Notes under the pieces: model-generated | Databases searched by the model: none | Told to the model about the DNA's origin: nothing | The model's input: the letters and a program-made list of their open reading frames with translations, nothing else | In this document: in pieces, positions 6,073 through 49,691 of the stretch | Position numbering within the stretch: the stretch's first letter is position 1 | How the letters are laid out: each line of letters starts with the position of its first letter | Source: a virus | Lineage: Duplodnaviria > Heunggongvirae > Uroviricota > Caudoviricetes | IMG/VR virus record: IMGVR_UViG_3300030339_000005 | Length of the DNA: 64,000 bases | Reading direction: 5' to 3' (one strand) | Translations under genes and position numbers: made by a program

Positions 6073-9000
6073 TTAAGGAATAGCTGAAATAATTGTTGAT
6101 TTAGCACTTCAGTTTGTTGCTACTTTATAAGCATTTACACTTGCAGTTGGTACATAAATATGAATTAAATTATTAGTGTAAAGAAAATTACCTGCGTCTA
6201 ATGTAGGCGGAATAACAGTTTTAATAGTAACTGTATTTAACATTGACTGATTAAAAAATATAGATTGTAAAATAGTTTTAACTAGTCTTCCAAAAGTAAC
6301 TGTTTGTAAATTAGAATTACTTCCTACAAAACCATCTTGAAATGTTGCACATATATTAGGTAATATAAAAGTTTGTAACCTATTTAAACTATCAAATGAA
6401 TATTTAGGCATTACATTATCTTTCGTTATTCAATATTTATTTCCACTAACATTATAATAATTTCCATATGAAGTTATTCTAACTCCTGAAATATCAATAT
6501 TTTGAAGATTTCCTCCAGTAGTAGAAGATGCCATTATTTTAAGACAACTAATATCATCACCGTCAATTGTTCCAAATAAATTTATAGACGTTAAACTTAA
6601 ATAATTACTTCCTAAAACAGATCGTAATGTTCCAAATTTTGTAACAACCGTCATTGCTAATCCGAGAATTAAAGAAGAATAAGTACTTCAATTAGTTTGA
6701 TAGTTTGAAACACTTGTAGTTCTAACATTAATAGTAGTTAAAGCAGGACAATTATTAAAAATTGTTGTTCCAATTGCAGGAGCACTACTCGGAAGAGATT
6801 TAACTTTTAACAATCCTGTACAACCATTAAAAACATTGTTTCCTAAAGTCGTAGTATTATTTGGAATAATTACTTCAGTTAAACTAGTACAGCCTGCAAA
6901 AGCAGAATCTCCAACTGTTGTGCAATTATCAGATATGAATATATCAGTTAATCCCGTACAACCATTGAAAGCGTTTGCTCCAATTGAAGTTACTCAATTT
7001 GGTATTATTAAATACCTTAATCCAGTGCATCCATTAAAAGCATTTGCTGGAATTGTTGTAATTCCTTTAAAAAACTCAAACTCAGGAAATGTAGTTATTG
7101 TAGTTTGTCCTTGAAATACAGTTCCAATTGTTGTAGCAGTGTTTAAATCGTCTGGTTGAATTACTCCATCAACATTTGTATCAAAATTATTTAAACATAA
7201 AGTTCCAGTTGCACTATCCTCAAAAGACATTGTTGTTACCATTCAAGATGATTGCGTACTTCAATTTGATGCAGATTGGTAAGCTGCTAAATTTGCAAGC
7301 GGAACATATATTTTAATTGGACTCATTGCATTAAATACACCAGTTCCTAATGTTGGTGGTGTTGCACTTTTACAAATTATATATTCTAGGTTAGAACTTG
7401 ATTGAAAAGCATAACTACTAATTGAAGTTACACTACTTGGAATCACCACTCTTCTAAGATTAATACAAGATGAAAATGCATTATCACTAATATTTGTTAT
7501 AGAATTTGGAATTATAATCGAACTAAGTTTAGTACAACCTTGAAAAAATGCCTGAGATAACATAGGAACATTGTTTGGTAAAACAACATTTATTAATTTT
7601 TCACAACTTTGACAAACACCTCTATTTAAATTAGTTATATTATTATTAAAAAGAATAGTTTCTAATTTTGTATAAGAAAACATTACTGAACCAAGAGTAT
7701 TATTAATATCAATAGAATATCCGTTATAATATGATCTTCCGCCAGCTTTAACATTAGCAGCAGATATATCAAGATAATATAATTTGTATAATTTTGATAA
7801 TTCTCTTATTACATAAACATCATCTCCATTAAAATCTCCTGTAAGTTTTAAGAAAGTTAAATTATAAAAATCATTAATTTTACTTTCTAAAGTTCCTGCA
7901 GAAGCTACAGTTATTGTTCCAATTGGAAAAATAATACTTGCATAACTTGACCATGTTGTTTTATATAAATCTATACTTTCGTAAGGTACATATATGGCCG
8001 TTAAATTAGTCCCACTAAATACATTAGAACCTAAAGTAGGTGGAGTAGAAGATCAAAAAGATATATTAGTTAATGCTATACAATTAAGAAATGCATTATC
8101 TCCAACATTTGTTATACCACTTGGTAAAACAATTGAATTTAATAAAGAACATCCAGAGAATGTATTATTATTAATTATTGTTAATCCAGAAGGTAATTTG
8201 ATATTTGTTAATCCACAATTTTCAAAAGCATTTGTTCCAATAGTTAAAATATTATTAGGTAATATAATACTTCCAATTAGATTAGTACAGCCACTAAATT
8301 CAGAATTATTTAATAAAGTTAATCCAATAAAGTGATTAATTTCACTAAATGAAGTAATTCCAGTATTTCCTTGAAAATGATTAGCCAAAGTTGTAATTGC
8401 AGCAACTTCATTTCCATCAACTATTCCATTAACATTTGTATCTCAATAAGTATTAAATACAGTATTTACAGCAGATGATTGAAAATAAGCAGTTCCAATT
8501 GTTATTGGGATTGATTTATATTTTACTCCATTATAATAAGCATTTAATATTTCAACTCCACTCATCGAATTAAAACTTGTGGTACCATTACCATTAATAG
8601 TAATTTTACTATTTGTTGCAGTTCAAGTAGTTCCTGTTGATACGCCAACTGTTACAACACTTTTTACATCAGTATAATCTTCAGAAGATTGTATTATTAC
8701 AGGTTCAGAACTACCAATTATGGCATCATAAGTTTCTAATCCTTTTGGAATTGGATATCTTCCAGAATTAAATACTCAGTTTGTATCAGTAAAACCAACT
8801 CCAGAACTTCCAGTTCTCAGGGCTGTACCTATTAATTGCAGAGTTGTTTTTTCTTCAATTTGATTAGTAATATCTAATTGTCTTCCTGGATTTTTAGCTA
8901 CTTGTTTATCATAATAATTTGACAATAGTGTGCTAGATACTATTGTTTCATTAAATAATCCGATGATACTACTACTGTAAGTATAATATAAATCTCCATA

Positions 9001-12000
9001 AACTTTTCCTAAATTTAAATTGTAACGAATAGTTCCATTAACAGAATCCCCACTTATAACTTTTCCCACAATTCCACCTATATATTCAGCAGTTGAATAA
9101 ATTAGCCCATAATTAGTATTGTATTCAACAGTGCCAAATCTTATACTTCCTAAAATTCCACCACTTCCTTTACCTGAAACATTTCCCAGATTTGAGCAAT
9201 ATCTAACTCCACAACCATCACCAACAATTCCCCCTGCTATACCTGTAGTTGCATTTATATTTCCAAGATTTATACAATATTCAACTCTTATAGAATTATT
9301 TTGAGAACCTCCTGAACTAGTTCCTAAAATTCCACCTGATCCATATTGTGAAGTAATATTAACTTCATTTATACAATTACTTACTATTATATTTAGTTCT
9401 CCAGCAGATCCTACTATTCCAGCAACATTAGAATAACCACTTATTGTTCCAGAAGAATAACAATTATTAATTAGTGAATTTATTTTAACACATCCACATA
9501 TAGCCGACATATAAGGTTGAGTAGTGGTAGATAAATTAACATTTGTTACTTTTAGATTTTGTATAACTGTATCAGATACAAAACCAAATAAAGCATTTCC
9601 ATTAACGCTAGGATTCTTAATATAAAGATTACTTATCGTGTGATTATTTCCATTAAATTGTCCTAAAAAACAATAAGAATAATCATTTCCAATGGGTAAC
9701 CAATTTCCAATTCCTACACCACAAACAGTATTTAAATTTATGTCAGTAGTTAAATTAAAAATAACAGAGGCCGCCATTGCAGGTAAATTAAATCCCTTAT
9801 AATTAAACCCTATATGAGAATTTACTCCATCTCTAAGAGATACTAAATCTGATACAGAATCAACAGTTGTAGTTAATAGTATAGATAACTGAGTTGATTT
9901 ATAAATAATTCCATTTTTTGCTGTGGTTATAATTTCAGTTCCTGCACCAGTTATATTAACTGTGCCTAATGTATTGTTAATTTCGAGTGTATTATTAGTG
10001 TCATTTCATTCCACATTATCACCAACTCCTACAGTAAAAGCATTTACATTAGTGTAGTTAATCGAAGAATCTAAAAGTATAGTTTTAGATCCTGCGATGG
10101 CATCATCATAAGTTTCTAATCCTTTTGGAATAGGATAAGCTCCAGTAGTAAATATTCAATTATCGTCAGTTCATCCAGCTCCAGTAGATCCACTTCTTAA
10201 TGAAGTCCCAATTAACTCAGAGGTTAATTTACCTAAGCAGTTTACAGTATCAACATTAGCTAATCCTTTTAATAAAGTAAATTGTTTATCATAATAATTT
10301 AATATTGCATCACTTACTGTTTCTGCAATACTACCTCCAGATGTAGTACTATAACCAGATGTATTAACAAAATTAGTATTTAAACAAAATTTAATACGAC
10401 CAGAATACCCAGCCCCATTAATATATCCTGCAATACCACCATATCTTCAATTACTAGCAGCAGTTATAATACGTCCATTATTTATACTATATTCAATATA
10501 TTCTAAATACGTAGCCATACCAATAATTCCTCCTATACTATATGCACTACTATTAGTTGTTGTTATTGCTCCATTATTAATACATTTAGATATTTTTAAT
10601 CATTGACTTATAGTATTTCCACTAATTCCTCCCATATAAGGACTACTATTATTACTTGACAAAGAAGCATTATTAATACATTTCGAAATATTTAAAGTAG
10701 TTCCTCCTAGACTACCTATTAATCCTCCTATATATTGAGCTGCTGAAATGGTTCCACTTACTCTGCAATTTGTTATTAATGCTCCTGCAATTGCGTCCAT
10801 TTGTCCAATTAATCCTCCAACATAATATTGAGCATTAATCATAACATTTGTTAATGTAATATCTTGTATAATACTACTACCTGATACATATCCAAATAAA
10901 CCTATATAATTACCGCCTGTATTATTAAAATATAAATTACTAATAGTATATCCATTTCCATAAAATTTTCCTTTAAAATTATTCGTAGCATTACCAATGG
11001 GAATTCAATTTCCAATTCCAGAGCCACAAATCGTACTTAGATTTAGGTTATTCATTAAATAAAATGGAGTATTTAAAGCATAAGCTGGAACAGTTGCACC
11101 ATTATAATTAAACGATACTCCAGAATTTACTCCATCTCTAAATGCAATTAAGTCTGCAGTTGTATAAATTTCAAATTTTAATTCTAAACCTATATTATAA
11201 GTAGTATCAATAAGAGAAGATGCATAATTAAATGTTTTAGTTACAGCAGCATTTCCTCCAACATTTCCATTAAGAGCTGCATTTGAGCGTAATGTAACTA
11301 CTCCTGAGCCATTAGCATATACTTTTTCACTTCCATTTAATTGTATTCATGAATTAGTAGGAACTCCTCCTAAATCATATGTAATATTAAAAGTTCGAAG
11401 TGCTAAAGTTGTTACAGTTGTATTAATAGTTCTATTAATTGTAGAAGTAAAACTTCCACTATAGGATTCATGAATATCTGCACCATATGTAAATGTTACA
11501 TTAGCACTTACTTCAGTATAAATTTTATAAATAGAATCAGAAATTTTTACAAAAGTTTGATTAGAACTAAAATTAGAATTTGTTAATGTTAAACCTCTAG
11601 ATGAAGTAAAAGTTAATGTTGTTTCAACTAATCCTCCTCAATCTGTGGGAATTGTATAATAATCAGTTAATCCTGAGCAGTGATAAAAACAACCAGTATG
11701 ATTTGTGATTGCTGTTCCTCTTTCTCATAGTTGAGTAGTTCCATTATGAGGTGATGCAGAAGTAATAGTAGAACAACTACTAAAACAATCAGTGACATCA
11801 GTCATAGTTAAACTAGCAATAAAGTAATTTTCAATATTAGATAATAATCCGCAATTTTTAAATGTACTATTAGCTGTTGTAAGAGTTGAGATATCATCAA
11901 AAGAAGTACAATATCTTAAACTACTATTTTTAAATGCTGAATTAGCATTAATTAAACCGCTGTTTCCAAAGAAATGTGTTCCAATAGTATCTATTTTAGT

Positions 12001-15000
12001 GCTATTTTCAAATAATGAGGCAATTGAAGTTACTCTAGTAGATTGATACATAAAGTAATTACCAATTGTAGTAATATTAGTTCCTGTAAATATTCCACTA
12101 ATTGTAGTAAGTCCTGTATTTCCTCTTAAAAAATTATCACTAACATTTATAATAGCATTGTTAGAGAAAACTCCAGCTAAACTATTAATTAAATGAGACG
12201 CATATACAAAGTTTATAGGTGTAGTGACAAAAGCAGTTCCATTAAATACATCAGTTATTGTTACCAATAAAGGACAATTAGATAGTAAATTACTTTCAAC
12301 TGAAGTTAAATTATTAGCTCCCATAAATAATCCAGAAACTGTTGTAAGTTTAGGACAACTTTGTAAGAAATTATTTCCGACTGAAGTTAGTCCAGTATTA
12401 TTTTGAAAAGCATTAATAGCTGATAATAACTCAGATGAATTTTGCATTACATTATTTCCAACATCGAATGATCTTGTAATTCCAGCAAATGCTGAATTTA
12501 AAGAAGTAATTTTATTATTAATTAAGAAATTATCTCCAATAGTGCTTATAATACTATTTGCAAGCATATTTGTTGCACTATTAATAGATGGATTTGTACT
12601 TAAAAAATTATTAGGAATATTAGCAATTTGAGTATTACTAAATAAATTATTAATATTTTCTAATATATTGTTTATAGATCCACCAACTGAATCACTTAAT
12701 AATATGTCTGAGTTAATTATAGATAAATTAGTTAATCCTAAATCAGAAAATTTAAAACTGCTTAATTGTGTAGATCTTAGAAATCCTGATGGTAAAGTAT
12801 TAATATTTAATCCATTAAAAACTCCAAAAATTGTATTTAATGATCCGAGTTCAGAGATAATACCTGATGGAATAGACGTAATATTTGTTCCACCAAAAGC
12901 ATAACTTAAATCTTCTAAATTAGAAGCTGTTTCAAATATAGAACTAGGAATAGTAGATAAACTAGAATTATTAAATAAATTACTAGCATTTAGTAATTCT
13001 GGACAAGTTTGAAATAAATTAGATTGTGTTGAAGCAATTCTACTATTTTCAAACATACTTGAAGCATCTCTTAAATCTGGATTATTTACAAATAAAGATC
13101 CTGTAACATTTAAACCTAAATAAGTTCCATCAAATTCACTATTTGTATTTACAATGTTTGCAAAACAATTAATAGCAGTAGTGATTGGCGATGTTAAAAA
13201 TAAATTAGCAGGAATATTAATTAATTCAGCCCCATTAAATGCATCATCAATTGTTCTTAATTTAGGACATTCTGAAAATACATTTCCAAATGTAGATTTA
13301 AATACATTATGTGAAGTAATTCCTGTAATAACATCTCCTGTATAAACTGGAGTATATGTTTGAAGTCTTGCTCCCATAAATATTTCAGAAATATCTTCTA
13401 AATTATCAAATTTAACTAAAGCTCCACTCGGAATATTTGTTAAATAGGTACAATTTTTAAATAATCCCTTCATTTCAACTAAAGCAGTACAACCTTTTAA
13501 GAATGACGTGCTAATTGAAGAAATTTTAGAGCCCTCAAACAAGTAATTTAAGCTTGTTAATCCAATACAATTTTCTAAAAAATTATCATTAATTACTACA
13601 GCATTTTCTCTATTTCTAAATAGATTTTCAACAGTAGTTAAATTAGGACAATTTGATATATTTAACGAATTTAAACTTGTAAAGGATGTTTCATCAAAAG
13701 TTAAATTAGTTAAACCTGTATTATTTATAATTGTTAATGTTTGTAAAGCAGTATATACATTAGCTAAGTTAAATCCTAATGCTGTTTCAGTTATAGAAGT
13801 GTTAGATATATTTAATGATGTAATTATATTTTTAGTAAATAATAATGAGGTTAAAGAGTTTAGTCCATCTACATTAATAGCTTGTTGAAAATTACAATTA
13901 GTTACATTAATAATCTCTAATCTTGGATTAGTTGAGAAACTTGTTACTTGTACAGCAGAACTTGCAGCGTAAAATTCTTTAAGTCTTAAGCAAGTATTTA
14001 AACCTACTAAGAAAGGAGTTTGACGTCCTAATCCACAACCTGTTAAATTAAGAATTTCAAGATTAGTTGTTCCAGTTAAATTTAAATAAGAGTTTTGATC
14101 TGTAAAATTAGATATACCACTTAAGTTTAAAACTTTTAAATTAGGGCAACTACTAAACTTACCAGTTTTTAAAGCTATATCATTTAGTCCTTCTATTTCA
14201 GTAATTACTCCACTATTATAAATTCTTAAAATATGTTGAGTAGTATTTGAGTAGCTATAAGAAAATTCAACTACTGCATCACCACCAGCACAATGTTTAG
14301 ACATTACTTGGTTTTGAGCAAATGAAACTCGTATAAATGAGGCTATAGCAGTTTTAATTCTTAAAGTAACAGTTCCATTATAGAAATGTTCAACATAAGC
14401 CATATCATCAGCATCAGGAACATATCCCATAATACCATCAACATAGTCTAGTCTTTTCTTTAAGAAGTTCTTCATAAACATTAATTTATTACCTCTAGCA
14501 TTAGAGATATAATTGCGTTTATTGTTTATATCAGGATCTCCATCAAAACCAATATATTTATATACTGCATCTTTATTAAAATATCTTTCTCCAATACGAG
14601 CAACCATTTGTTTACTATATGTTTGAAGAATACTTGAATAATCAAAAGGTGCAGAAATTCATGAACTTGGTTCTCTTGTTCCTTTTAATGGGTCATATGT
14701 ACCAGAACGTAATTCTTGATAACGTCTTGATAATGCAGGTCCATAACATTTTGACATCCTTTTGAAGAAGTTAGTACCAAAACAGTTATATTCCCAACCT
14801 GAAGTTGGTGTTGCTGTAAAATAGTTTTGATTAGGATCTTCTCTATTAGCTCCAGCAATTGTATAAGGTCATTCAATATAAGGAGTTGCATATAGTCCCC
14901 CTTGTACGTTAGTACCAAAGGCAGTATCTATATCATAGAATACAGGATGAAATTTAATTCTTTCTCTATTCATTACTCCAGGAGTTTCTGTTTCAACAGA

Positions 15001-18000
15001 GTTTTCATCCCAACCTAACATAGTTAAGTTACGACCAACACTATCAGTTAAACAGAATGTAAAACAACATAAAACATAATCAATACAATTTCTTAAATCA
15101 AAGAATTTTTCAAATGTTAAACTATCAGCAAAAGCTTCATCAGTTGCATTTGCCATCCAATAAATTGCATTCAAAAAGTCAGTATGTTGTTGTGTAGCAA
15201 ATATTGCCTTATTTTTATTAATTCTATAAAAAGTTGATCCAGGATTAGTTAATGAAGGAAGTGTTGGACTATACGTTTCAGTTCTTTCGGACTCATTTGC
15301 TAAAAGTGAAGTATAGTAATCAACTACTTGATTTCCCGATCTATCAGCTTTTCCTGTCGTTTCTAATTTATCTCAAACTCAACGTAATGTTTTTGTAGAA
15401 TTAGGAGCATTTAAATCAAGTTCATGAGGATTAATTAAATTATAAGTTCTTGTTCAAACTCCATTTAAATATTCTTCTCAATGTCCAATTCCAAAATCAC
15501 CCGGATCTCTACATTCTCAGTCCATTACTAATTCAGCACCTTGTCTTCAAGCTAATTCTTGAGCATCATTTGTCTTATTTCAATAGTCTACTCCTTGTTG
15601 CCAAATGTGTTTTTCAGCATTATAAATTATTCCTACATGAGATTTATTAGTTGGGGAAGTTCCTAAATTCGAACCTTGATCATCAGTTGCATATCTGATT
15701 AAAGTATATGTCCCATGAGAATTTGAAATACCTTCAGAAATACTAATAGAAGATCATGTATAATCATGATAATCAGTTGATTTAATATTAGTTGTTTTAT
15801 CAACAGCTATGCCAATATATAAGTTACCAATAGGACTATTTTCGAATTGTGTATTAGTTTTCGAAACAGAGTATACAACTCATGTATATTTTCCATTTGA
15901 TTGTAGTAAACCTTCTGATGAATTAATTGGAAATCAAGTATAATCAGATGCTACTTTATTTTCAAAGAGTTCATTATTTTGAGCTGTTTCAATATATGAT
16001 GTTGATAAAACTCTTCCATAATAATCAACTAATAACTGTTCAGAACGCATATCAAGAAATTTACAATAACCAGATCTTAATTCTTCATGAACAGAGTCAC
16101 CATTAGATTCAGAACGATAAATATAATATCTTCTATTAGGATCACTCTTTTCACTAGGCATTGAATATAACTTTCTATGCTGCTTTAAATTCCAAGTATA
16201 TAATCCGGTAAATCGTTTTGAGTATCAAGTTTGATCAATTTTATAATCTCCATTCATAATAAATGGAAATCCATCAACAGCTAATCTTAATGGATATACT
16301 GGATATCTACTTAAGTTATCAACTACTGTATCAGGACGTGTTACTGTATAATTTATAAAAGGATTAGCTCTACCAAACACAGGAGTGAATTGTTCTGCAC
16401 CTTCTGAATTTTCTCAGTTAAATGGATATCTAAAGACTTGTTCTGATAATTTTGCTATAATTAGATTATTACAATGTGAACTATCAATATAGTTTGCTTT
16501 TAAATGATAAGAATCCCAATCTGGTCATGGTCTAACAATAGGATCTCCATTATTATAAACCATATTATAAAATTTTGGTGTTTTAGTTTGAGTTAGATCT
16601 CAAGCTTGACCATCAAAAATATCAATACCATAATTCTTAATAGGATAAGATAATGATGAATTACCTTGTAAGTCAACATCAACTGGAAAAGGCATAACCA
16701 TAGTTTGATAAGCTCCATCAAATTCTCCTATAGCTTGAGGATCAGGGATATAAGTATCAGCAATGTTTTCTTCGTTACCAGGATTAAAACTTAATTCTAG
16801 TTGAGTCATAATATCTTTTTGTATAGCACTTCGATCACCCTCCATATAACCAGAGGAAAGAATTGGGGTAGCTACACTATTAAGTTCTTCTAATAATGCC
16901 CGTCCCCCATCTTCAGGATAACATGCAATATAATTAGCTAAAATGTCATCAGTTGTTAAACAAGTCTTATAAACTCTTAAAAATCTAATTTTTGTTTCAG
17001 CAATTCCTACAACTTCTCCTAATAAATTTTTATAACCATTAATATAAATATGTTCGTCAGCTTGAGTTAAGAATAATTCTTGATCAACAAATGTTCCAAA
17101 TGATGAAATAACACCATTTAAATAAACATATACTTCTTTAGTATCTATATTAAAAGTAATAACAACATGAGCATATTCTTGACCTTCAACTCATTCTCCA
17201 TTCTTAGTAAGTACTCTACTATCACAGATAATAGGAACACTAATATTTGTTGATAATCCATTAATTCTTAACTCATTTGCAGTTACATAAATACCTACAG
17301 ATGGAGTAATTTCTGGTCTACCAATACTTAATTGATAAACCCCTTCTCCAACTAAAGCACCCTCTCTAATTGAGAATTCAATAGTTAAACCAGTTGTATT
17401 ATTTTCAAATCCTGCAAGTGGTGCATAATTAACTTCAACATAAGCTGAACCATTCATTGAAAGATCATCACCTAAATGTTGATTTGCTCCAGTAATTTCT
17501 CAACCATTTAATTCAGTATTAAATCCGTTAAGAACTGCATAATTATCTGGTAAATTTAATGTATATTTATTTTCTCATAATCCTCAATTTGGAGAATTAT
17601 TAGTTTTACCTTTAGCATTTAGATATAATTCTAATTTAGATATTGGTGTTTCTAATACAATATAAGAAGATTTTTGTTGTAATGATAGATTTAATAAATT
17701 AGTATTAGCCCAATAGGTTTCATTTTCAGGTAACTCTAATAGCTCTGACGTGTATCTTATTGAGATACTATTTCCACTATCAGGTAGTAATAATACTACT
17801 TCATTACCTTTTTGTGAAAGACTTGGTGCAGAAATATAATAAGGACTAACTCTTAATCCATTAATTTCTAACCATGCTTTAGATTGATAAGTATATTGGC
17901 CAATATATTCTGAATTTTCATCATAATAAATGTTTACGGGAAGTACAATAGTATCTCCAACATAATATGATAAATTAGTATTAAAATCTGTAGAAGAATA

Positions 18001-18978
18001 TAAAATTCCTGATTTATTTACAACAATGTTAATAGTAAGAGTATTAGAAATAACTCCTAATCCAGTTGCTGAGATTGTTAAATTATAATCACCAATTTCT
18101 GTAAACTCTCTAGGTATAGTATAGTTAACAAAGAATACTTGACCTGATATAAAATTTGCATCATTTGGAGTAAGTTTGTAATTAGAAACTTTATCAACTA
18201 CAGCTGCATAATCTTGATAAACTAAATGTCCAGAATTATTTGGATCATCTACTAACATTCTTCCAGATAATGTATAAGTTAAATCAATTGTATTTATAAT
18301 AGAAGACACTCCAAAACCAACAACAATAGGTGTATTTTGTCTATATGTTTGTTCAGACAAAAAGTTTGAAGTTAATGTAATTGTTCCAACTATAATAGTT
18401 AAGTTTAAAGTTGCAACTGAAGACTTTCCAAATTTATCTGTTACGTGAACATCAGAAAATACATAAGTACCTTCTGGTAATGTTACTTGATATAAATCTG
18501 AATCAGGATTATAGTACTCACTTCCATAAATTAAAGCTGTTAAGTTTAGAGTATTATTTCCATTATGTAATCCTGATAAAATAAAGGAAGTTTGTCCTTG
18601 TGCAATGTTAGGATTAGTTCCGGTTAAAGTTAACTCTCCTCCTTCGGCATCGAATAACTCAATGTCTAAAAGTAACTCATCACCTATTTTATAAATAAAT
18701 GTTGAGTTTTTAATTTTAATTATTGGTGCTGTATTATTTGTTGGAGTTGCTGCACCATATTCTGCTATATATTCAATTAATGCTTCAATAGAGTCAATTA
18801 CAACACTAGTATTAGAATCAACAATAATAGTTGTTCTTCCTAATTTATTTGTTAAAGCATCAAATGTCTGTTGTAAGGTATCTGCATTTTCATTAATTGC
18901 TATAACTACAGCATTAAATTCAGGTGCTGTTAAAGTGCTACCTTCTACTTTTGTTGGTATGTTTAAATGTGTTGTCAT
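6073..18978 (-). CDS. giant virion/tail protein, about 4300 aa, dozens of in-frame TGA; BspA-type LRRs (about 14600-11700 and 8400-6100), Gly-rich beta-helix-like repeats (about 11700-8800); ATG 18976-18978, true stop TAA 6073-6075
   Basis: Sixteen ORF-track fragments all share one frame; hand scan of every gap found only TGA, no TAA/TAG; normal TGG Trp codons also present. Confidence 0.6.
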
Positions 18979-28908: not shown

Positions 28909-29161
28909 TTGTTCTAATTACTTTATAAATGTCTAGTCTCATATAATTTCTACTTCGTAATTCTGCATATATGAAATCTAAAAACTCTTCGTCTGTTTCA
29001 CAGTCAATATTTAAAGTAGTTGGTGTCATATAACTTGGAATACCAATAGAAAATTTATATCCAGGATTTAATTTTTCTACAGTTAATAAGCCAATATAAT
29101 CAGCTTTATACCAAGTCTTTATATATTCACGAATCGTCTGAATTAATTCTTGTTCTTGCAT
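28889..29161 (-). CDS. hypothetical protein, 90 aa
   Basis: ORF track; ends TAA. Confidence 0.45.
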   Translation of the reverse strand: MQEQELIQTIREYIKTWYKADYIGLLTVEKLNPGYKFSIGIPSYMTPTTLNIDCETDEEFLDFIYAELRSRNYMRLDIYKVIRTNDSKEE

Positions 29162-31193
29162 CTCGTTCTTCTATTGTTTTTGGTATTATACCATAATGTT
29201 TATAACCTTTACTATCTTTATATCAACCTATGTCTTCGAATTTTTTACCAATTGGTTCTCTTGCAACAGGTTTCCTAACTGATAATTCTTCATCACCTAA
29301 TTCCGCCATACCCATTGCTGCTACAATATCAAACTCTTTTTTCTTTTCATCAGAATATTCTAGCAACTGTTCTACAATTTCTCTATAAGCAATTGTATAA
29401 CAATAATCTAAACAAAAATCGTAAATTAATTCTCGATAATGATCAATAACTTTAGGACTTGTTGGAGCTCCATACATATTTGCATTACCTTTTGTAACGT
29501 CAGACATTGTAGATCTCGGCCTTTTCATTAATAAATGAAGTAATTTTTGATCTCTAAAGTGAGTTAAGATAGCAGTTCTCGAAGATTCTAATACTGCTTG
29601 GCAGCCATAATGAGTTAACATCTTTGCAGCTATCTCATAAGCCTCTCTAGGATCTCTTGGTCTATCTTTATATAGTGCAACATAACATGGATCTGAAGTT
29701 CCAAATACCCTTTTCTTAATTACTATACAAAATTGTGATGGCTTTTTATCAGTTCCAGTAGAGTCTGCAGTTCCTATATCAATGGAGTCAATGCCACCAA
29801 CATATAAATTTCTATAAGATGTTTCTGCTTCTGAGACTAATGGTTGTTCTAATATAAGAATCTTTCCATTCTCATCATCTCGAACTCACTTTGTTCCAAT
29901 AATTTGATCGTGTTGATCTCGAGTTCAAATTAAATGTCCTCTAATAGGTACTGGAACATTTTTATAAATATCAATTCGAGCGGCTTGTTCTGCTAATTCT
30001 TCACGAGGAAACATATTATCACCTTGTTGAATTAAAGCCTCTTCAATTGTAAAACAATATTCAGCTTTATAAATTAATAATCCCTTAGGATCTTCAGCCT
30101 TTAATCGTCTTTGATATTCATAATATTCTTTAGCTTTCTGTGGATCGCACCATCCGCGCTTATCAAGTAAACTAATTACCATTCGATAAGCTGGAATAAA
30201 CATTGCAGTTTCTATTGTGCGACCATCAGGAGTATAATTATGTCTATAACGTAATACATTATATGCATCAGGCTTAGTAACAATATCTTTAATACCTTCA
30301 AGTGCTGGACCTTCGTCTCCTCCAGTTCCTCATACAATTCTAGTTCCTACACGCTCTCCTCCTAATACAGTTATTAAAGCTTCTCCTTGTAGATATTTTT
30401 TCTTTAAAACTTTATCAGATCCTGCTTCTTCAAAGAATAATCGTTCAACACGGTCACCTCTAATTTTTTCTGGAGAATCGGCAATTACACCCTCAATTTC
30501 TGACATATGTCCCATCTCAACTCCATCTCGTGTTTTTACAGAAGCTCTCTTATGACTATTTGTATTAATAACCATACGAACTCTTTTAAATGCACCTTCA
30601 GTTTCTTCATTTAAATAATCAAGTTGAAGCCAAATTTTTGTTAGCAATGGTTTAAGATGTTTTTCAGAATAGGCTGACGCAAGCACACGATAGTTTGGCG
30701 TCGTTACAAATGGTCGAGCACATAATTCTGCTGCCATTTCCGAAAAGCCCAAGGCACGAGCCTTAACGAGTGCTACATCTTTTCCCAAATATTCACATAA
30801 TTCAACATAATGAAAATATTCATATTGAAAAACTAAGAACATTGGGAAGCTAATCTTTCTACCAGCTGACGCTTTAGCTCCTTCAACAGATGATTTTAAT
30901 CTATAGAAATTTAATCAAAAATAATTATCACCAGTAATTCTATAACCATTGATAGTTAACCCTTCAGTACATCGTTTAAATCTTTCTTTTCAAAATTCGA
31001 TGTATCCTCGAGAACCATAAACAGTTTTACTATATTTACCTGTTTTAACTTTAGTAATTGCATCTTCACGAAACAAATCAGGATCAAAATCAAGTCCTTG
31101 AGATTCGTTTATAGGTCTATAACCAGTTATTTCATATGATAGTGTAGGATCAAAACATTCAATCGAATCACCCAATTTTATATCTCAGTCCAT
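29106..31193 (-). CDS. terL: terminase large subunit, about 695 aa, TGA-recoded (TGA at 31185, 30990, 30330, 29925, 29223); ends TAA 29106
   Basis: Five ORF-track fragments in one frame; merged sequence has ATPase-then-nuclease order typical of TerL; ATG 31191-31193 overlaps upstream stop. Confidence 0.6.
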
Positions 31194-37817: not shown

Positions 37818-37913
37818 TGGCACGGGTATCAGGACTCGAACCCGAATAATGAAGTTTGGACCTCCACGTGTGGTTTTGAAGACCACTTCTATTCCCAATA
37901 GGAAAGTACCCGC
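37818..37913 (-). tRNA. suppressor tRNA reading UGA (anticodon UCA); long variable arm, G73 discriminator, encoded CCA, irregular D-arm
   Basis: Minus strand GCGGGTA...GTGGT-CTTCAAA-ACCAC...TGGAG-GTCCAAA-CTTCA...TCGGG-TTCGAGT-CCTGA-TACCCGT-G-CCA; 7-bp acceptor, 5-bp anticodon stem with loop CUUCAAA, canonical T-arm. Confidence 0.6.
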
Positions 37914-46522: not shown

Positions 46523-47658
46523 AACAATCCTGGTGATAAATGGTCTTAGCTGAGTGCCAAATATCTTTATTCGCAATATGCGTTACAGGAGGCTCATACG
46601 ACAACATCCAATCGTCGAGAACACTACACGCGCAAACAATATTTTTGAATGAAATGAATGAAGAACGTGATGTAGCCGTGTAAGTCGGCAGTATTTGAAC
46701 TAGATAGTTTAGTGCTAATTTTCAAGTCCTACTGGGTATGCTCATATTGAGTACGGTAATGATACTAGAGATTGGTTAAATAGCTAGTTCTTGGGTAGGG
46801 CAAACACACACGTAGTGGTGGTGAACACTGATAGAGGTAAAAAGGCTCGGGATGGGGCTACATTTGTCGGCAGTGGAGTTAATGGCATCCTATTGCTCCA
46901 TGTATTAAAGTCCGGTCTGAAGACACCTTCCTTACCCATTCCCATTTCTCTCCACAATTAATCAAGACACGAAGTCTGACGACGATTCGCCTTGGATCAC
47001 TTCACTAAGATACTTTGCTAAAGCCGAGTAGCTCAGAGCGTGGAGTATGGAGAGAGAAATCTCATTTAGTTGTACGCAACTACACATAGTAAGAATGAGG
47101 TACGAAACGTATTAAATTGTAGCGGTAGATTTAAGGCTTAGGATAAGTCCTTATCTAAAAGTATGTCTTTGACATATATACTAATTCAGACAATTAAGTA
47201 GTACGCAATATCACCACTATGTGATGAACTTTTAAGCTAGTTTTTAGAAAACAGCAACCATTGTAAACCACCGGCGCTGCAAGCTCGGACTCGGATAGAT
47301 GGAACGGTGTGATTCCCAATGCGCTAATTTGTTGAGATACTATCATGTTTGGATTATTCTGGGTAATGTTAATTCATTCTTGGGATGGACAAGACCACGA
47401 AATTCGCGGTGGCCATGATTGATATGTGGCGAGCAATTCTCAACAACCTGTGGTGGCCCATTTACTTGCGCCGATCTCCACAATGCGTTTGGCAGTCGAT
47501 TAACATTCTCTAACGAGTCTAAACATCCTCTCCCTGACACCGTTAAGCCGGGACCAGCTGCTGTAGTCATCCATCGATCTCGTGCGCTTAGCATGAGCCC
47601 ATCCTTGGATGACCGGCAGTTTTTAGTTGCCACTTCAAACCTAAAACATGTTGCCTAT
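46523..47658. other. 1.1-kb ORF-poor, GC-richer region with many stem-forming segments and a tRNA D-arm-like motif at about 47021-47045; candidate structured ncRNA or decayed tRNA array
   Basis: No credible ORF on either strand; TAGCTCAGAGCGTGGAG motif; repeated GTCGGCAGT. Confidence 0.3.
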
Positions 47659-48270
47659 ATGATTAAGATTGGATTTACCCCTCTTGAACAAGAACTCATG
47701 AAAGAGTATAATGCAGCTAATCGCTTGCATCTGCTCTTTATCCAACACCCTGAATGCGAAGAAATGATGCGTAACACAATTGAAGAACACTTTACTTGTG
47801 CTACTTTTGAAAACATCAAAGCTCGCGTTGTTGGTGTCCTTACTGGCGAAATGAATCGCCTTCATGGTACTAAGTGTCTAATCAATGATACCTTAACAGG
47901 TGTTATTCGTGCAGGCGCAGCAGTATCTGTATCATTTTCCTTTAACGAATCAGGTGATTACGAATTGGAACTCTATGTAGATACTGCGAATAAGTATACC
48001 TCTCGTATGTACAAGGTGAGCGAACTAACTATTGATGAATCCGTGTTGACAATTGCCAAGGTGGTGATTGGACAATATTCTAGTTACGCAGACTGTATTC
48101 GTGACCTAAGGCTACAAGGTTGTAAAGATCTTGGTTGGCTAAATTCTGATAACTTCACAATGCCAGCGGGCGCACACTTCACAGTGGCTTATCACACGGA
48201 TCGTGCTAAGTCGGACGTGTATTGTGATGTAATTCGGAGATTGTATTATTCAGTGGATGAAGGCGACTAA
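47659..48270 (+). CDS. hypothetical protein, 203 aa
   Basis: ATG at 47659 (MIKIGFTPLEQELMKEY...) in frame of ORF 47419-48270; upstream part looks noncoding. Confidence 0.45.
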   Translation: MIKIGFTPLEQELMKEYNAANRLHLLFIQHPECEEMMRNTIEEHFTCATFENIKARVVGVLTGEMNRLHGTKCLINDTLTGVIRAGAAVSVSFSFNESGDYELELYVDTANKYTSRMYKVSELTIDESVLTIAKVVIGQYSSYADCIRDLRLQGCKDLGWLNSDNFTMPAGAHFTVAYHTDRAKSDVYCDVIRRLYYSVDEGD

Positions 48271-48784: not shown

Positions 48785-48881
48785 TTGACAGTAGCTCAGC
48801 TTGGTTAGAGTGCAACATGGACAAAATCCTTGAGGAGTTTGGTCTATGTTGAGGTCACAGGTTCAAATCCTGTCTGTCAAT
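48785..48881 (+). ncRNA. tRNA-like element with canonical acceptor stem, D-arm and T-arm, but the anticodon arm replaced by a ~17-bp hairpin with a 4-nt loop
   Basis: TTGACAG-TA-GCTCAGCTTGGTTAGAGT...CAACATGGACAAAATCC-TTGA-GGAGTTTGGTCTATGTTG-AGGTC-ACAGGTTCAAATCCTGT-CTGTCAA. Confidence 0.5.
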
Positions 48882-49522
48882 CAATATTATAACAATTACT
48901 ACCAGTTCCATGGCGGACCGAAGGATGCTATCTGGTAGGGTAACTCTTGCACGTACGGGGCAAGGGAGTCAGATTATTGTTATTGTTTTCTTTAGCGTGC
49001 TGCTAGCTTCACTAGGCTCAGTAGACAATAGAGAGAGCATAAATCCCCGACGCAGCTTTTAGGGACTTATTGCGCTAGCTGCTATGACAACCACTCCAGG
49101 TTGAAGTGCGTGAAACTCGTAACTTACAAATCTATGGCATTCTAAACCATGAGGATTTGTAATCCGTAACAAGCCCTGCCCACATGATGGGATTTGCGCA
49201 AGAGTCGGACCTATAAAGCAAAGTAGATACAACTTGAAGAGAGCCTATGAATTCCTTCTCTTGAGGGTGAAAAGGTGGAAATATTATCATAACCTAGGAA
49301 GTGTGGTACTAAAGTAAATGTAATCTAATGTGTCAATTCATACCTGCATTAGTGCATTTGTTTTTGCTTTTAACTATTAGAAAGGACGTGATCATCGTCG
49401 TATCCCTAAGCAAGGAGAAAAACTGCAGTTACAGGTTGGGCGTCTTTAGATTATATCTAAGGAAGTCCTCATAGAAGTCAGCGATGCGCAAGCTAGCTGT
49501 GCCCAGTAACAAAAAAATTCTG
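48882..49522. other. 640-nt noncoding stretch between two tRNA-like elements; candidate large structured RNA
   Basis: No ORFs of 60 aa or more; several local hairpins, e.g. CTTGC-N9-GCAAG. Confidence 0.3.
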
Positions 49523-49593
49523 GTTGGGGTGTCGTCTAGTGGTTAGGACGGGCATCGCGAGCTAAACATGGGTTCGAATCCCAGCTCCTCCTC
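49523..49593 (+). ncRNA. second tRNA-like element or fragment: D-arm (TCGTC-TAGTGGTTAG-GACGG) and T-arm (TGGG-TTCGAAT-CCCA) present, no anticodon arm or clean acceptor pairing
   Basis: GGTTGGGGTGTCGTCTAGTGGTTAGGACGGGCATCGCGAGCTAAACATGGGTTCGAATCCCAGCTCC. Confidence 0.35.
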
Positions 49594-49691
49594 AAAGTCA
49601 GAGACCTCGAAAGAGCTCTGTGCCAGAACTCATTAAAATCGTTTATTTGTGTGGTCACATGGTGCAACACGAATGGACTTAGTGAAGTATA

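What the first reader, a model, noticed from the sequence alone, without database searches (positions are those of the whole stretch)
48785..48881. tRNA-like gene whose anticodon arm is replaced by a 17-bp hairpin
Acceptor stem (7 bp, perfect), D-arm (GCTC-AGCTTGGTTA-GAGT), variable loop and T-arm (ACAGG-TTCAAAT-CCTGT) are canonical. Between D-arm and variable loop sits CAACATGGACAAAATCC-TTGA-GGAGTTTGGTCTATGTTG. This folds as one nearly perfect 17-bp stem with a tetraloop and no 7-nt anticodon loop. Possible explanations: a tRNA with a short non-canonical intron, a tRNA-derived decoy or regulatory RNA, or a disabled tRNA gene. A real host tRNA gene would be canonical.
Basis: seen in the sequence. 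Interest (0 to 1): 0.6.

Follow-up and report, generated by a model that had tools for sequence, protein, structure and literature searches.

The report
Phage tRNA look-alike without an anticodon
A large bacteriophage that reads the stop codon TGA as tryptophan carries a conserved gene shaped like an isoleucine tRNA whose codon-reading arm is replaced by a long rod, so it cannot decode and probably acts as a tRNA mimic of unknown purpose.

Summary
Window 48785-48881 (+) is a complete tRNA body (Rfam tRNA 49.5 bits, gathering 29). A 39-nt hairpin sits where the 17-nt anticodon arm should be (-15.4 kcal/mol, z -4.15). The window is part of a ~178-kb phage with TGA read as Trp, and four independent assemblies carry it identically, so it is not an artefact.

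It is not an intron-bearing tRNA. No single excision restores a canonical loop, there is no bulge-helix-bulge motif, and the host looks bacterial. It is not a repeated palindromic insert.

Related phages carry the same tRNA-Ile-type body in the same genome region. Their acceptor, anticodon and T stems are kept by compensatory changes. The anticodon arm differs in each: 3 bp plus a tetraloop, a 13-nt loop, an 18-nt loop, or a canonical GAU loop with a 22-nt D-loop.

The gene is therefore best read as a maintained, non-decoding tRNA mimic. Its function is not shown. A decoy or scaffold for tRNA-binding proteins is the favoured inference. A link to the phage's Ro60/TROVE gene is weak.

The parts
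48785..48791 (+). Acceptor stem, 5' strand (TTGACAG; U1-A72 first pair)
   Evidence: Pairs 7/7 with 48874-48880. All 7 pairs covary across 20 related tRNA-like genes.
48794..48811 (+). D arm (GCTC / AGCTTGGTTA / GAGT) with the GG of the D loop
   Evidence: Aligned to Rfam tRNA positions 10-25 at high posterior probability. It is a tRNA-Ile/Met-type body: 71 of 114 canonical phage tRNAs with this body motif have CAT, TAT or GAT anticodons.
48813..48851 (+). Anticodon-arm replacement. A 39-nt hairpin made of the normal 5-bp anticodon stem CAACA/TGTTG extended by about 12 more pairs (one A.G mismatch, one bulged G) and capped by the tetraloop UUGA (48830-48833).
   Evidence: -15.4 kcal/mol, z -4.15. 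No other copy in the window on either strand at up to 3 mismatches. Orthologues have 10-, 23-, 28- and 31-nt arms at this position.
48852..48856 (+). Variable loop AGGTC
   Evidence: Invariant in all family members.
48857..48873 (+). T arm (ACAGG / TTCAAAT / CCTGT)
   Evidence: 5/5 pairs with a canonical T loop. Four of the five T-stem pairs covary in the family.
48874..48884 (+). Acceptor stem 3' strand (CTGTCAA), discriminator T (48881) and 3' trailer CAA. No CCA is encoded.
   Evidence: The trailer C74-A/T-A is the signature of bona fide tRNA genes in related phage loci (CTA 93 and CAA 77 of 269). The orthologues share it: L034 A|CAA, L039 type A|CAA, L105 T|CTA.

Best explanation
This is a phage gene for a non-decoding tRNA mimic that descends from a tRNA-Ile-type gene. 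Inferred steps: the transcript is cut out by the host tRNA-processing enzymes (RNase P at the 5' end, 3' trimming and CCA addition). It folds into the normal L shape, because the acceptor stem, D arm, T arm and the D-loop/T-loop elbow are all intact. Shown: the limb that should carry the anticodon is a ~17-bp rod capped by a tetraloop. It has no 7-nt loop and is roughly three times the normal length, so it cannot pair with a codon on the ribosome. Shown: related phages keep the same body in the same genome region while the anticodon limb changes freely (mini-hairpin, 13-nt loop, 18-nt loop, long rod). Selection therefore acts on the tRNA body, not on decoding. Inferred, not shown: the RNA works by being recognised as a tRNA by proteins that read the acceptor/T-arm/elbow, acting as a decoy, sponge or scaffold. 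The partner could be a host tRNA-targeting defence or toxin, a tRNA-processing or modifying enzyme, or a phage RNP. The variable limb would then be either irrelevant or a lineage-specific handle.
For: An intact tRNA body with an insertion only in the anticodon loop, and a stable hairpin. The locus is identical in four independent assemblies. Orthologues occur in phages whose neighbouring AAA ATPase is only 53-67% identical. L034 has an 18-nt loop, 6.5 kb upstream of the ATPase. L105:6312-6377 lies directly after the homologue of window ORF 47299-48270 and has the arm GTC-AAAT-GAC. L134:6886-6971 has the same CAACA stem, a canonical CUGAUAA (Ile GAU) loop and a 22-nt D loop. The L039 type has a 13-nt loop inside tRNA arrays. 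Between the window and L034, four pairs changed on both sides in the acceptor stem and four in the anticodon stem. T-stem pairing is kept through one-sided changes to G-U, and the flanking intergenic DNA is unalignable. Across 20 distinct tRNA-like genes with aberrant anticodon arms, 96.6% of stem cells pair, 11 of 16 pairs show double changes, 0 of 500 shuffles reach the observed score, and slid controls pair 26-48%. The 3' trailer signature is shared with genuine tRNA genes. No canonical tRNA is found in the equivalent early regions of L104-L114, apart from one tRNA-Leu, but each region has cloverleaf or minihelix look-alikes.
Against: No expression, processing or binding data exist. The function is inferred only from what is conserved. 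Only a handful of true orthologues are available, and each has a different anticodon limb. That pattern is also what repeated decay of a tRNA gene under relaxed selection would give if the decay were recent in each lineage. One orthologue (L134) still has a canonical Ile anticodon loop, so the ancestor may have decoded until fairly recently. The wider set of short-armed look-alikes was found with a pattern that demands an intact D arm and T loop, so it is biased towards intact bodies.
Confidence: 0.62

Rival explanations
1. A processing signal only ('tRNA punctuation'). The cloverleaf is kept because RNase P and 3' tRNA nucleases cut the long early transcript there, setting the ends or stability of neighbouring mRNAs or of the ~640-nt non-coding stretch downstream. 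The released RNA itself would have no job.
For: It sits 70 nt after an ORF and in front of an ~800-nt ORF-free, partly conserved region that also holds a second weak tRNA-like element. Some distant relatives keep only the acceptor plus T-arm minihelix, which is the minimal RNase P substrate (L106, L110). The 3' trailer resembles that of real tRNA genes.
Against: In the L039-type phages the element lies inside a dense tRNA array only 4-5 nt from its neighbours, where no extra cleavage site is needed. The D arm and elbow nucleotides are also conserved, which is more than a cleavage signal needs.
Confidence: 0.15
2. A Y-RNA-like partner of the phage Ro60/TROVE protein (58305-60047). Like bacterial YrlA/Yrn1, it would be a tRNA mimic that tethers the Ro60 ring to another factor.
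For: The phage encodes a TROVE-family protein on the same strand. Bacterial and phage Y RNAs are tRNA mimics without an anticodon (PMC4201824). In relatives L104 and L105, tRNA-like modules with the same body and mini anticodon arms lie immediately downstream of the TROVE gene, inside RNAs closed by a terminal stem.
Against: The element is 9.4 kb from the TROVE gene, whereas YrlA RNAs lie within 4 kb. It has a normal open acceptor stem, with no terminal Ro-binding helix and no GNCGAAN0-1G motif. Better Y-RNA candidates exist in the window at 63616-63815. The L034 phage keeps the element, but its contig was not among the TROVE hits and TROVE is absent from its syntenic region. No TROVE is found near the L039-type elements or the 19 short-armed look-alikes.
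Confidence: 0.1
3. A dead tRNA-Ile gene: a pseudogene inactivated by an insertion in the anticodon loop and not yet decayed.
For: No decoding is possible. The orthologues show different lesions (insertions in the anticodon loop or D loop, deletions), as unconstrained loops would. One orthologue still has a GAU loop. Aberrant forms are a minority among phage tRNAs with this body.
Against: All four stems and the invariant D- and T-loop nucleotides are intact in every orthologue, although protein divergence is 35-45% and the flanks are unalignable. Stems changed by compensatory pairs. The insert is itself a well-formed, low-energy hairpin rather than random sequence. The aberrant state is found in every sampled lineage of the clade.
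Confidence: 0.1
4. An intron-containing tRNA (archaeal/eukaryal-type short intron, or an unknown phage splicing system) that is spliced to a working tRNA.
For: In 185,579 species genomes, the only hits to this body with an enlarged anticodon region (51) are all archaeal, presumably intron-bearing tRNAs although their structures were not inspected. ARAGORN can force a Thr(GGU) model with a 20-nt intron. Relatives carry hairpin insertions in variable loops and D loops of tRNAs, which hints at a general tolerance of insertions or a way of handling them.
Against: Every possible single excision leaves G33, or C37 with a shifted stem. The helix is continuous, with no two 3-nt bulges 4 bp apart. L034 cannot yield U33 at all, and L105 has a 4-nt loop. 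The phage has a PG_binding_1 endolysin, PhoH and a DnaD-like protein, which points to a bacterial host lacking the splicing endonuclease. At 22-29 nt it is far too short for a group I intron.
Confidence: 0.03

Closest known systems
Bacterial and phage Y RNAs with a tRNA-like domain (YrlA of Salmonella/Mycobacterium; Yrn1 of Deinococcus) - PMC4201824
   Same: A non-coding RNA that mimics the tRNA D arm, T arm and acceptor stem, has no anticodon, is a substrate of tRNA enzymes, and occurs in genomes that encode a Ro60/TROVE protein, including phages.
   Different: YrlA is circularly permuted relative to a tRNA: its ends lie in the 'anticodon' stem and its acceptor stem is closed by a loop. It carries a Ro60-binding helix with the GNCGAAN0-1G motif and lies within 4 kb of Ro60. 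Here the acceptor stem is open as in a real tRNA, the anticodon limb is a closed hairpin, the motif is absent, the TROVE gene is 9.4 kb away, and orthologues exist without a TROVE gene nearby.
Intron-containing archaeal tRNA genes (bulge-helix-bulge introns)
   Same: A tRNA body with extra nucleotides inside the anticodon arm. The 51 cellular-genome hits to the body-plus-enlarged-arm pattern are all archaeal.
   Different: No bulge-helix-bulge motif, no canonical loop after excision, and a phage of a probable bacterial host. Orthologues have arms too short to contain an anticodon at all.
tRNA-like domain of tmRNA
   Same: An acceptor stem plus T arm recognised by RNase P and other tRNA enzymes, without an anticodon arm.
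   Different: tmRNA has a reduced D arm, a long pseudoknotted body and a tag reading frame, and is about 350 nt. ARAGORN finds no tmRNA here and this element is 97 nt with a full D arm. A true tmRNA was seen in the unrelated locus L001.
Non-canonical phage and bacterial tRNAs (allo-tRNAs with 8/4 or 9/3 branches, PMC5389517; suppressor tRNAs of recoded phages, bioRxiv 10.1101/2021.08.26.457843)
   Same: Unusual cloverleaf geometry in tRNA genes of phages, including phages that reassign stop codons. The recoding survey explicitly expects non-canonical tRNAs that escape detectors.
   Different: Those RNAs keep a 7-nt anticodon loop and are thought to decode. This one has none.
mascRNA-type tRNA-like small RNAs and the T4 'species 1/2' stable RNAs of the tRNA cluster (from my own knowledge, not checked here)
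   Same: tRNA-like RNAs made by the tRNA-processing machinery that do not decode. The T4 RNAs are phage-encoded and of unknown function.
   Different: No sequence relationship was tested. mascRNA is eukaryotic and derived from a long non-coding RNA.

Membership tests
Canonical decoding tRNA | Cloverleaf body: 7-bp acceptor stem, D arm, T arm with T-loop consensus, and a score above the Rfam tRNA gathering threshold | tested here: met
   49.5 bits against a gathering score of 29. All stems are fully paired.
Canonical decoding tRNA | 5-bp anticodon stem closing a 7-nt loop with U33, a 3-nt anticodon and a purine at 37 | tested here: not met
   29 nt lie between the stem strands and fold into a helix with a 4-nt loop. 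ARAGORN's two calls disagree.
tRNA with archaeal/eukaryal short intron | Bulge-helix-bulge motif (two 3-nt bulges separated by 4 bp) at the exon-intron junctions | tested here: not met
   The predicted helix is continuous, with only a 1-nt bulge and one mismatch. Pairing 32-35 with the nucleotides 5' of a 3-nt bulge gives U.U and G.G mismatches (read directly from the sequence).
tRNA with archaeal/eukaryal short intron | A canonical anticodon loop restored after a single excision | tested here: not met
   All prefix/suffix combinations give G33, or U33 with C37 and a shifted stem (and enumeration). L034 cannot yield U33, and L105 has a 4-nt loop.
tRNA with archaeal/eukaryal short intron | A host that has the tRNA splicing endonuclease | not testable with these tools
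   The host is unknown. The PG_binding_1 endolysin, PhoH and DnaD-like genes point to a bacterium.
tRNA with group I intron | A self-splicing intron of about 200 nt or more with the group I core | tested here: not met
   The insert is 22-29 nt, and there is no Intron_gpI hit in the window.
YrlA / Y RNA | tRNA-like D and T arms without an anticodon | tested here: met
YrlA / Y RNA | Terminal helix formed by the 5' and 3' ends and carrying the Ro60-binding motif (GNCGAAN0-1G in YrlA; GGUCCGA-type in Yrn1 and metazoa) | tested here: not met
   The ends form an ordinary 7-bp acceptor stem and the motif is absent from the element (motif taken). A GGACCGAAGG string at about 48916-48925 is at chance level by my own estimate (about 4 expected in the window) and is not in a suitable helix.
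YrlA / Y RNA | Encoded within about 4 kb of the Ro60 orthologue on the same strand | tested here: not met
   Same strand but 9.4 kb upstream. Orthologues in L034 and the L039 type have no TROVE gene detected.
tmRNA | tRNA-like domain plus a tag-peptide reading frame and pseudoknots | tested here: not met
   ARAGORN reports no tmRNA in the window, and Rfam keeps tRNA as the best clan member.
Miniature palindromic mobile insert (MITE/REP-like) in a tRNA gene | Further copies of the insert elsewhere in the genome | tested here: not met
   No other copy of the hairpin or of either arm in 64 kb at up to 3 mismatches, and none in IMG/VR by exact pattern. The other 114 kb of the phage genome were not available.
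tRNA pseudogene | Unconstrained decay: stem-breaking substitutions, loss of invariant D/T-loop bases, no conservation between lineages | tested here: not met
   Stems are intact and covary between lineages whose flanking DNA is unalignable. Recent independent inactivation cannot be fully excluded.

The most novel reading that the evidence does not exclude
A clade of large, stop-codon-recoding phages maintains a dedicated 'anticodon-less tRNA'. This would be an L-shaped RNA made by the host tRNA-processing machinery, with a freely evolving anticodon limb. Its job would be to be mistaken for a tRNA: for example to soak up or block a host tRNA-targeting defence or toxin, or a tRNA-binding enzyme, or to serve as the tRNA-like module from which the phage's own Ro60/Y-RNA particles were built. 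That would be a new class of phage counter-defence or host-takeover RNA.
Probability: 0.3. Interest if true: 0.8.

Novelty: new variant of a known kind. Interest (0 to 1): 0.55.

Why it matters
Phage tRNAs are currently explained by codon usage, by replacement of tRNAs cut by host defences, or by stop-codon suppression. All of these need an anticodon. A phage gene that keeps the whole tRNA body under selection but has discarded the anticodon points to a use of the tRNA shape outside decoding. Standard annotation either misses it (the Rfam whole-window scan did) or mislabels it (ARAGORN called it Cys, then Thr with an intron). If its partner were identified, that could reveal a new phage-host conflict around tRNA-binding proteins. 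It could also show how tRNA-like Y RNAs arise. The same phage clade carries both this element and tRNA-like modules embedded in apparent Y RNAs next to its Ro60 gene.

Tried and rejected
1. The whole-window Rfam gathering scan found nothing. Only local scans with permissive filters recover the tRNA.

2. GenBank phages have no relative at the DNA level. There were only chance 25-38-nt matches to ordinary tRNAs.

3. Exact-pattern scans for the hairpin and for the window's own body in IMG/VR found nothing, so this phage is not in that collection. The single metagenome scan recovered only the L034 and L039 types.

4. Loci fetched through the TROVE protein (L001-L022) share no other gene with the window, so they were useless for synteny. 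No Y-RNA family was reported near them by Rfam.

5. The upstream 143-aa protein is an orphan.

6. Pfam and PHROGs gave no RNA-processing enzyme near the element, either in the window or in L034.

7. The promoter and terminator scan was uninformative.

8. I looked for a shared loop motif (ACAAAA in the window, L034 and L126; CAAAAC as in tRNA-Trp loops; stop-codon anticodons at the 3' edge of the loops) and for similarity to the suppressor's anticodon arm. With three or four sequences these could not be told from chance, so I dropped them.

9. No antisense target of either hairpin arm was found in the window.

10. Literature searches found no description of anticodon-less phage tRNA look-alikes of this kind.

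Full report
**What is at the coordinates**

Window 48785-48881 (+) reads TTGACAG TA GCTC AGCTTGGTTA GAGT G CAACAUGGACAAAAUCC-UUGA-GGAGUUUGGUCUAUGUUG AGGTC ACAGG TTCAAAT CCTGT CTGTCAA T.

- The acceptor, D and T stems are fully paired, and the D and T loops carry the usual conserved bases.
- In a local scan the Rfam tRNA model scores 49.5 bits (gathering 29) and places a 28-nt insertion in the anticodon loop.
- The whole-window scan at gathering threshold missed it, presumably because of the filters.
- The 39 nt between position 26 and the variable loop fold into one hairpin of -15.4 kcal/mol. Shuffles average -6.1, z is -4.15, and none of 200 shuffles does as well.
- The hairpin has 16 standard or wobble pairs, one A.G mismatch, one bulged G and a UUGA tetraloop.
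- ARAGORN calls the gene Cys(aca) in one mode and Thr(ggt) with a 20-nt intron in another. There is no real anticodon loop to find.

**Where it sits**

The window is part of a ~178-kb phage genome.

- Contigs 100% identical over 20 kb around the element occur in four independent ENA, JGI and Logan assemblies, so the structure is not an artefact.
- The genome has a peptidoglycan-binding endolysin, a PD-(D/E)XK exonuclease, PhoH and a DnaD-like protein. It also has a MoxR-type AAA ATPase, an SPFH/Band_7 protein and a Ro60/TROVE-like protein.
- The late genes on the minus strand (1-31193) are full of in-frame TGA. Reading TGA through turns fragments into, for example, a 4301-aa ORF.
- The eight TGA positions in the terminase align with Trp (minor Phe/Tyr) in 105 homologues.
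- A UCA suppressor tRNA lies at 37818-37913 (-).

So this is a phage of the TGA-to-Trp recoded kind (compare bioRxiv 10.1101/2021.08.26.457843), most likely with a bacterial host.

**Relatives of the element**

GenBank phages hold nothing similar. Relatives were reached through the neighbouring AAA ATPase and through DNA patterns. The same tRNA-Ile/Met-type body (TAGCTCAG..TGGTTAGAG. ... AGGTC ..... TTCRA.T) is found in the same early-gene region, but the anticodon limb differs each time.

| Locus | Anticodon limb | Position |
|---|---|---|
| L034/L030 (213-kb contig, ATPase 60% identical) | TCGGC/GCCGG stem closing an 18-nt loop | 6.5 kb upstream of the ATPase |
| L105:6312-6377 | GTC-AAAT-GAC, 3 bp plus a tetraloop | directly after the homologue of window ORF 47299-48270 |
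| L134:6886-6971 | same CAACA 5' stem strand as the window, with a canonical CUGAUAA (Ile, GAU) loop, but a 22-nt D loop | 0.9 kb upstream of the ATPase |
| L039 type (human-gut phages) | 13-nt loop | inside tRNA arrays |
| L042 | 31-nt arm predicted to fold as a long hairpin | GC-rich viral contig |

More distant relatives (L106, L110, L111, L104) keep an acceptor stem and T arm around unrelated cores, or carry a 6-bp/3-nt-loop 'anticodon' hairpin. The body type is that of tRNA-Ile/Met: of 114 distinct canonical phage tRNAs with the same body motif, 71 have CAT, TAT or GAT anticodons.

**Is the body under selection?**

- Between the window and L034, four pairs changed on both sides in the acceptor stem and four in the anticodon stem. 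T-stem pairing is kept through one-sided changes to G-U.
- The surrounding intergenic DNA cannot be aligned.
- I aligned 20 distinct phage tRNA-like genes whose anticodon arm is not 17 nt, with the arm removed. In that alignment 96.6% of stem cells pair and 11 of 16 pairs show changes on both sides.
- No shuffle of 500 reaches the observed covariation, and slid controls pair only 26-48%.
- The acceptor stem was not part of any search pattern, so its 92% pairing is not an ascertainment effect. The D arm and T loop were part of the pattern, so they say nothing.
- The family also shares the 3' trailer signature of genuine tRNA genes in these phages: C74 followed by A/T, with CTA or CAA in 170 of 269 genes. 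This suggests the same 3' processing and CCA addition.

**What it is not**

- *Not an intron-bearing tRNA.* Every single excision that leaves seven loop nucleotides gives G33, or U33 with C37 and a shifted stem. The helix has no pair of 3-nt bulges 4 bp apart. L034 cannot produce U33, and L105 has only a tetraloop.
- *The archaeal hits do not change this.* The 51 hits to 'this body plus an enlarged anticodon region' in 185,579 species genomes are all archaeal. This is expected, because short tRNA introns exist only there and in eukaryotes. It says nothing about this phage's host.
- *Not a group I intron.* It is far too short.
- *Not a repeated palindromic insert.* No second copy exists in the window, and removing the palindromic part leaves a 3-nt loop.
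- *Not a tmRNA*.

**The Ro60/Y-RNA lead**

The phage encodes a TROVE protein at 58305-60047, and bacterial and phage Y RNAs are known tRNA mimics (PMC4201824).

In favour of a link:
- In relatives L104 and L105, tRNA-like modules with the same body and mini anticodon arms sit just downstream of the TROVE gene, inside RNAs closed by a terminal stem.

Against it:
- This element is 9.4 kb upstream of the TROVE gene.
- It has an ordinary open acceptor stem and lacks the Ro60-binding motif.
- The window has better Y-RNA candidates at 63616-63815, a conserved ~125-nt RNA with an invariant terminal helix AGAACAC/GUGUUCU.
- The L034 phage, the L039-type phages and 19 further short-armed look-alikes have no TROVE gene detected nearby.

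I keep this as a minority rival. It also remains a possible evolutionary link.

**Best reading**

The gene is a maintained, non-decoding tRNA mimic derived from a tRNA-Ile-type gene.

- Shown: an intact tRNA body, no anticodon loop, a limb too long for decoding, conservation of the body with a freely varying limb across a phage clade, and tRNA-like 3' trailers.
- Inferred: maturation by RNase P, 3' nucleases and the CCA-adding enzyme into a stable L-shaped RNA, and action through proteins that recognise the acceptor/T-arm/elbow (decoy, sponge or scaffold).
- The partner is unknown. I favour a decoy or scaffold role over a pure RNase P punctuation role, because the L039-type copy sits inside a tRNA array where no extra cleavage site is needed, and because the D arm and elbow are conserved as well.
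- A pseudogene remains possible if inactivation was recent and independent in each lineage. The canonical GAU loop in L134 keeps that door open.

**Novelty**

tRNA mimics are a known kind (Y RNAs, the tmRNA tRNA-like domain, viral tRNA-like structures). In the searchable literature I found no description of a phage-encoded, non-permuted tRNA body with a hypervariable, anticodon-less limb conserved across a clade. I rate it a new variant of a known kind, of moderate to good interest, with the function open.

Noticed in passing
window 1-31193 (minus strand), e.g. 6073-18978; terminase 29106-31193: The late and structural genes use in-frame TGA, with 39 in one 4301-aa ORF, while the early genes do not. 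TGA positions in the terminase align with Trp (minor Phe/Tyr) in 105 homologues. The phage is therefore TGA-to-Trp recoded in its late module.
   Followed up: yes
window 37818-37913 (-): A UGA-suppressor tRNA (anticodon UCA, loop CUUCAAA) with G73, an encoded CCA and a ~23-nt variable arm. ARAGORN labels it tRNA-SeC. It looks like a Trp-type suppressor carrying an inserted long variable arm and an odd D arm.
   Followed up: partly
window 63688-63815 (+) and 63616-63690 (+); L104:16417-16552, L105:17991-18132, L106:18716-18852: A conserved ~125-nt RNA (CUUGAUAAGAACACAU.CAGCAA ... GGAGUGUUCUG, followed by a U run in the window only) with an invariant terminal helix. It is preceded by a second element whose terminal stem covaries. 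In the relatives both lie within about 0.2-1 kb downstream of the Ro60/TROVE gene, and two of them enclose tRNA-like modules. These are candidate phage Y RNAs, and Rfam has no match.
   Followed up: partly
window 49525-49592 (+), flanked by 49477-49503 and 49597-49624: A second weak tRNA-like element (Rfam tRNA 24.8 bits, 3-bp anticodon stem, imperfect acceptor stem). It is bracketed by two copies of a hairpin GTCAG...CTGTGCC. The element and the downstream hairpin are conserved in L034 (about 540-630).
   Followed up: partly
window 46823-46913 and 49214-49374: ORF-free blocks conserved at the DNA level with relative L104 (86% and 73% identity), although the flanking genes are not conserved. 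They may be regulatory or RNA elements.
   Followed up: no
L004-L022 (e.g. L006:5084-5175, L004:4201-4288, L004:6475-6557, L004:4001-4081): Gut phages that carry a TROVE homologue have tRNA arrays in which normally short-armed tRNAs (Pro, Lys, Thr, Asn, Arg) carry inserted variable-arm hairpins. They also have a CUA suppressor with an anticodon stem extended to about 8 bp.
   Followed up: partly
L115-L133 (IMG/VR), e.g. L116:3838, L125 (- strand 727), L118 (- strand 3760): About 15 distinct phage tRNA-like genes with the same Ile/Met-type body whose anticodon arm is only 10-14 nt, often a 4-5-bp stem capped by a tetraloop such as GAAA. Many lie inside tRNA arrays and none is near a TROVE gene.
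   Followed up: partly
L001:12922-13281 and L018:12540-12755: A phage-encoded tmRNA (72 bits) and a group I intron (92 bits) lie next to TROVE homologues in two distant phages.
   Followed up: no
269 tRNA genes in the fetched phage loci: The 3' trailers almost always start with C74 followed by A or T (CTA 93, CAA 77, CTT 25, CAT 20). CCA is rarely encoded.
   Followed up: partly
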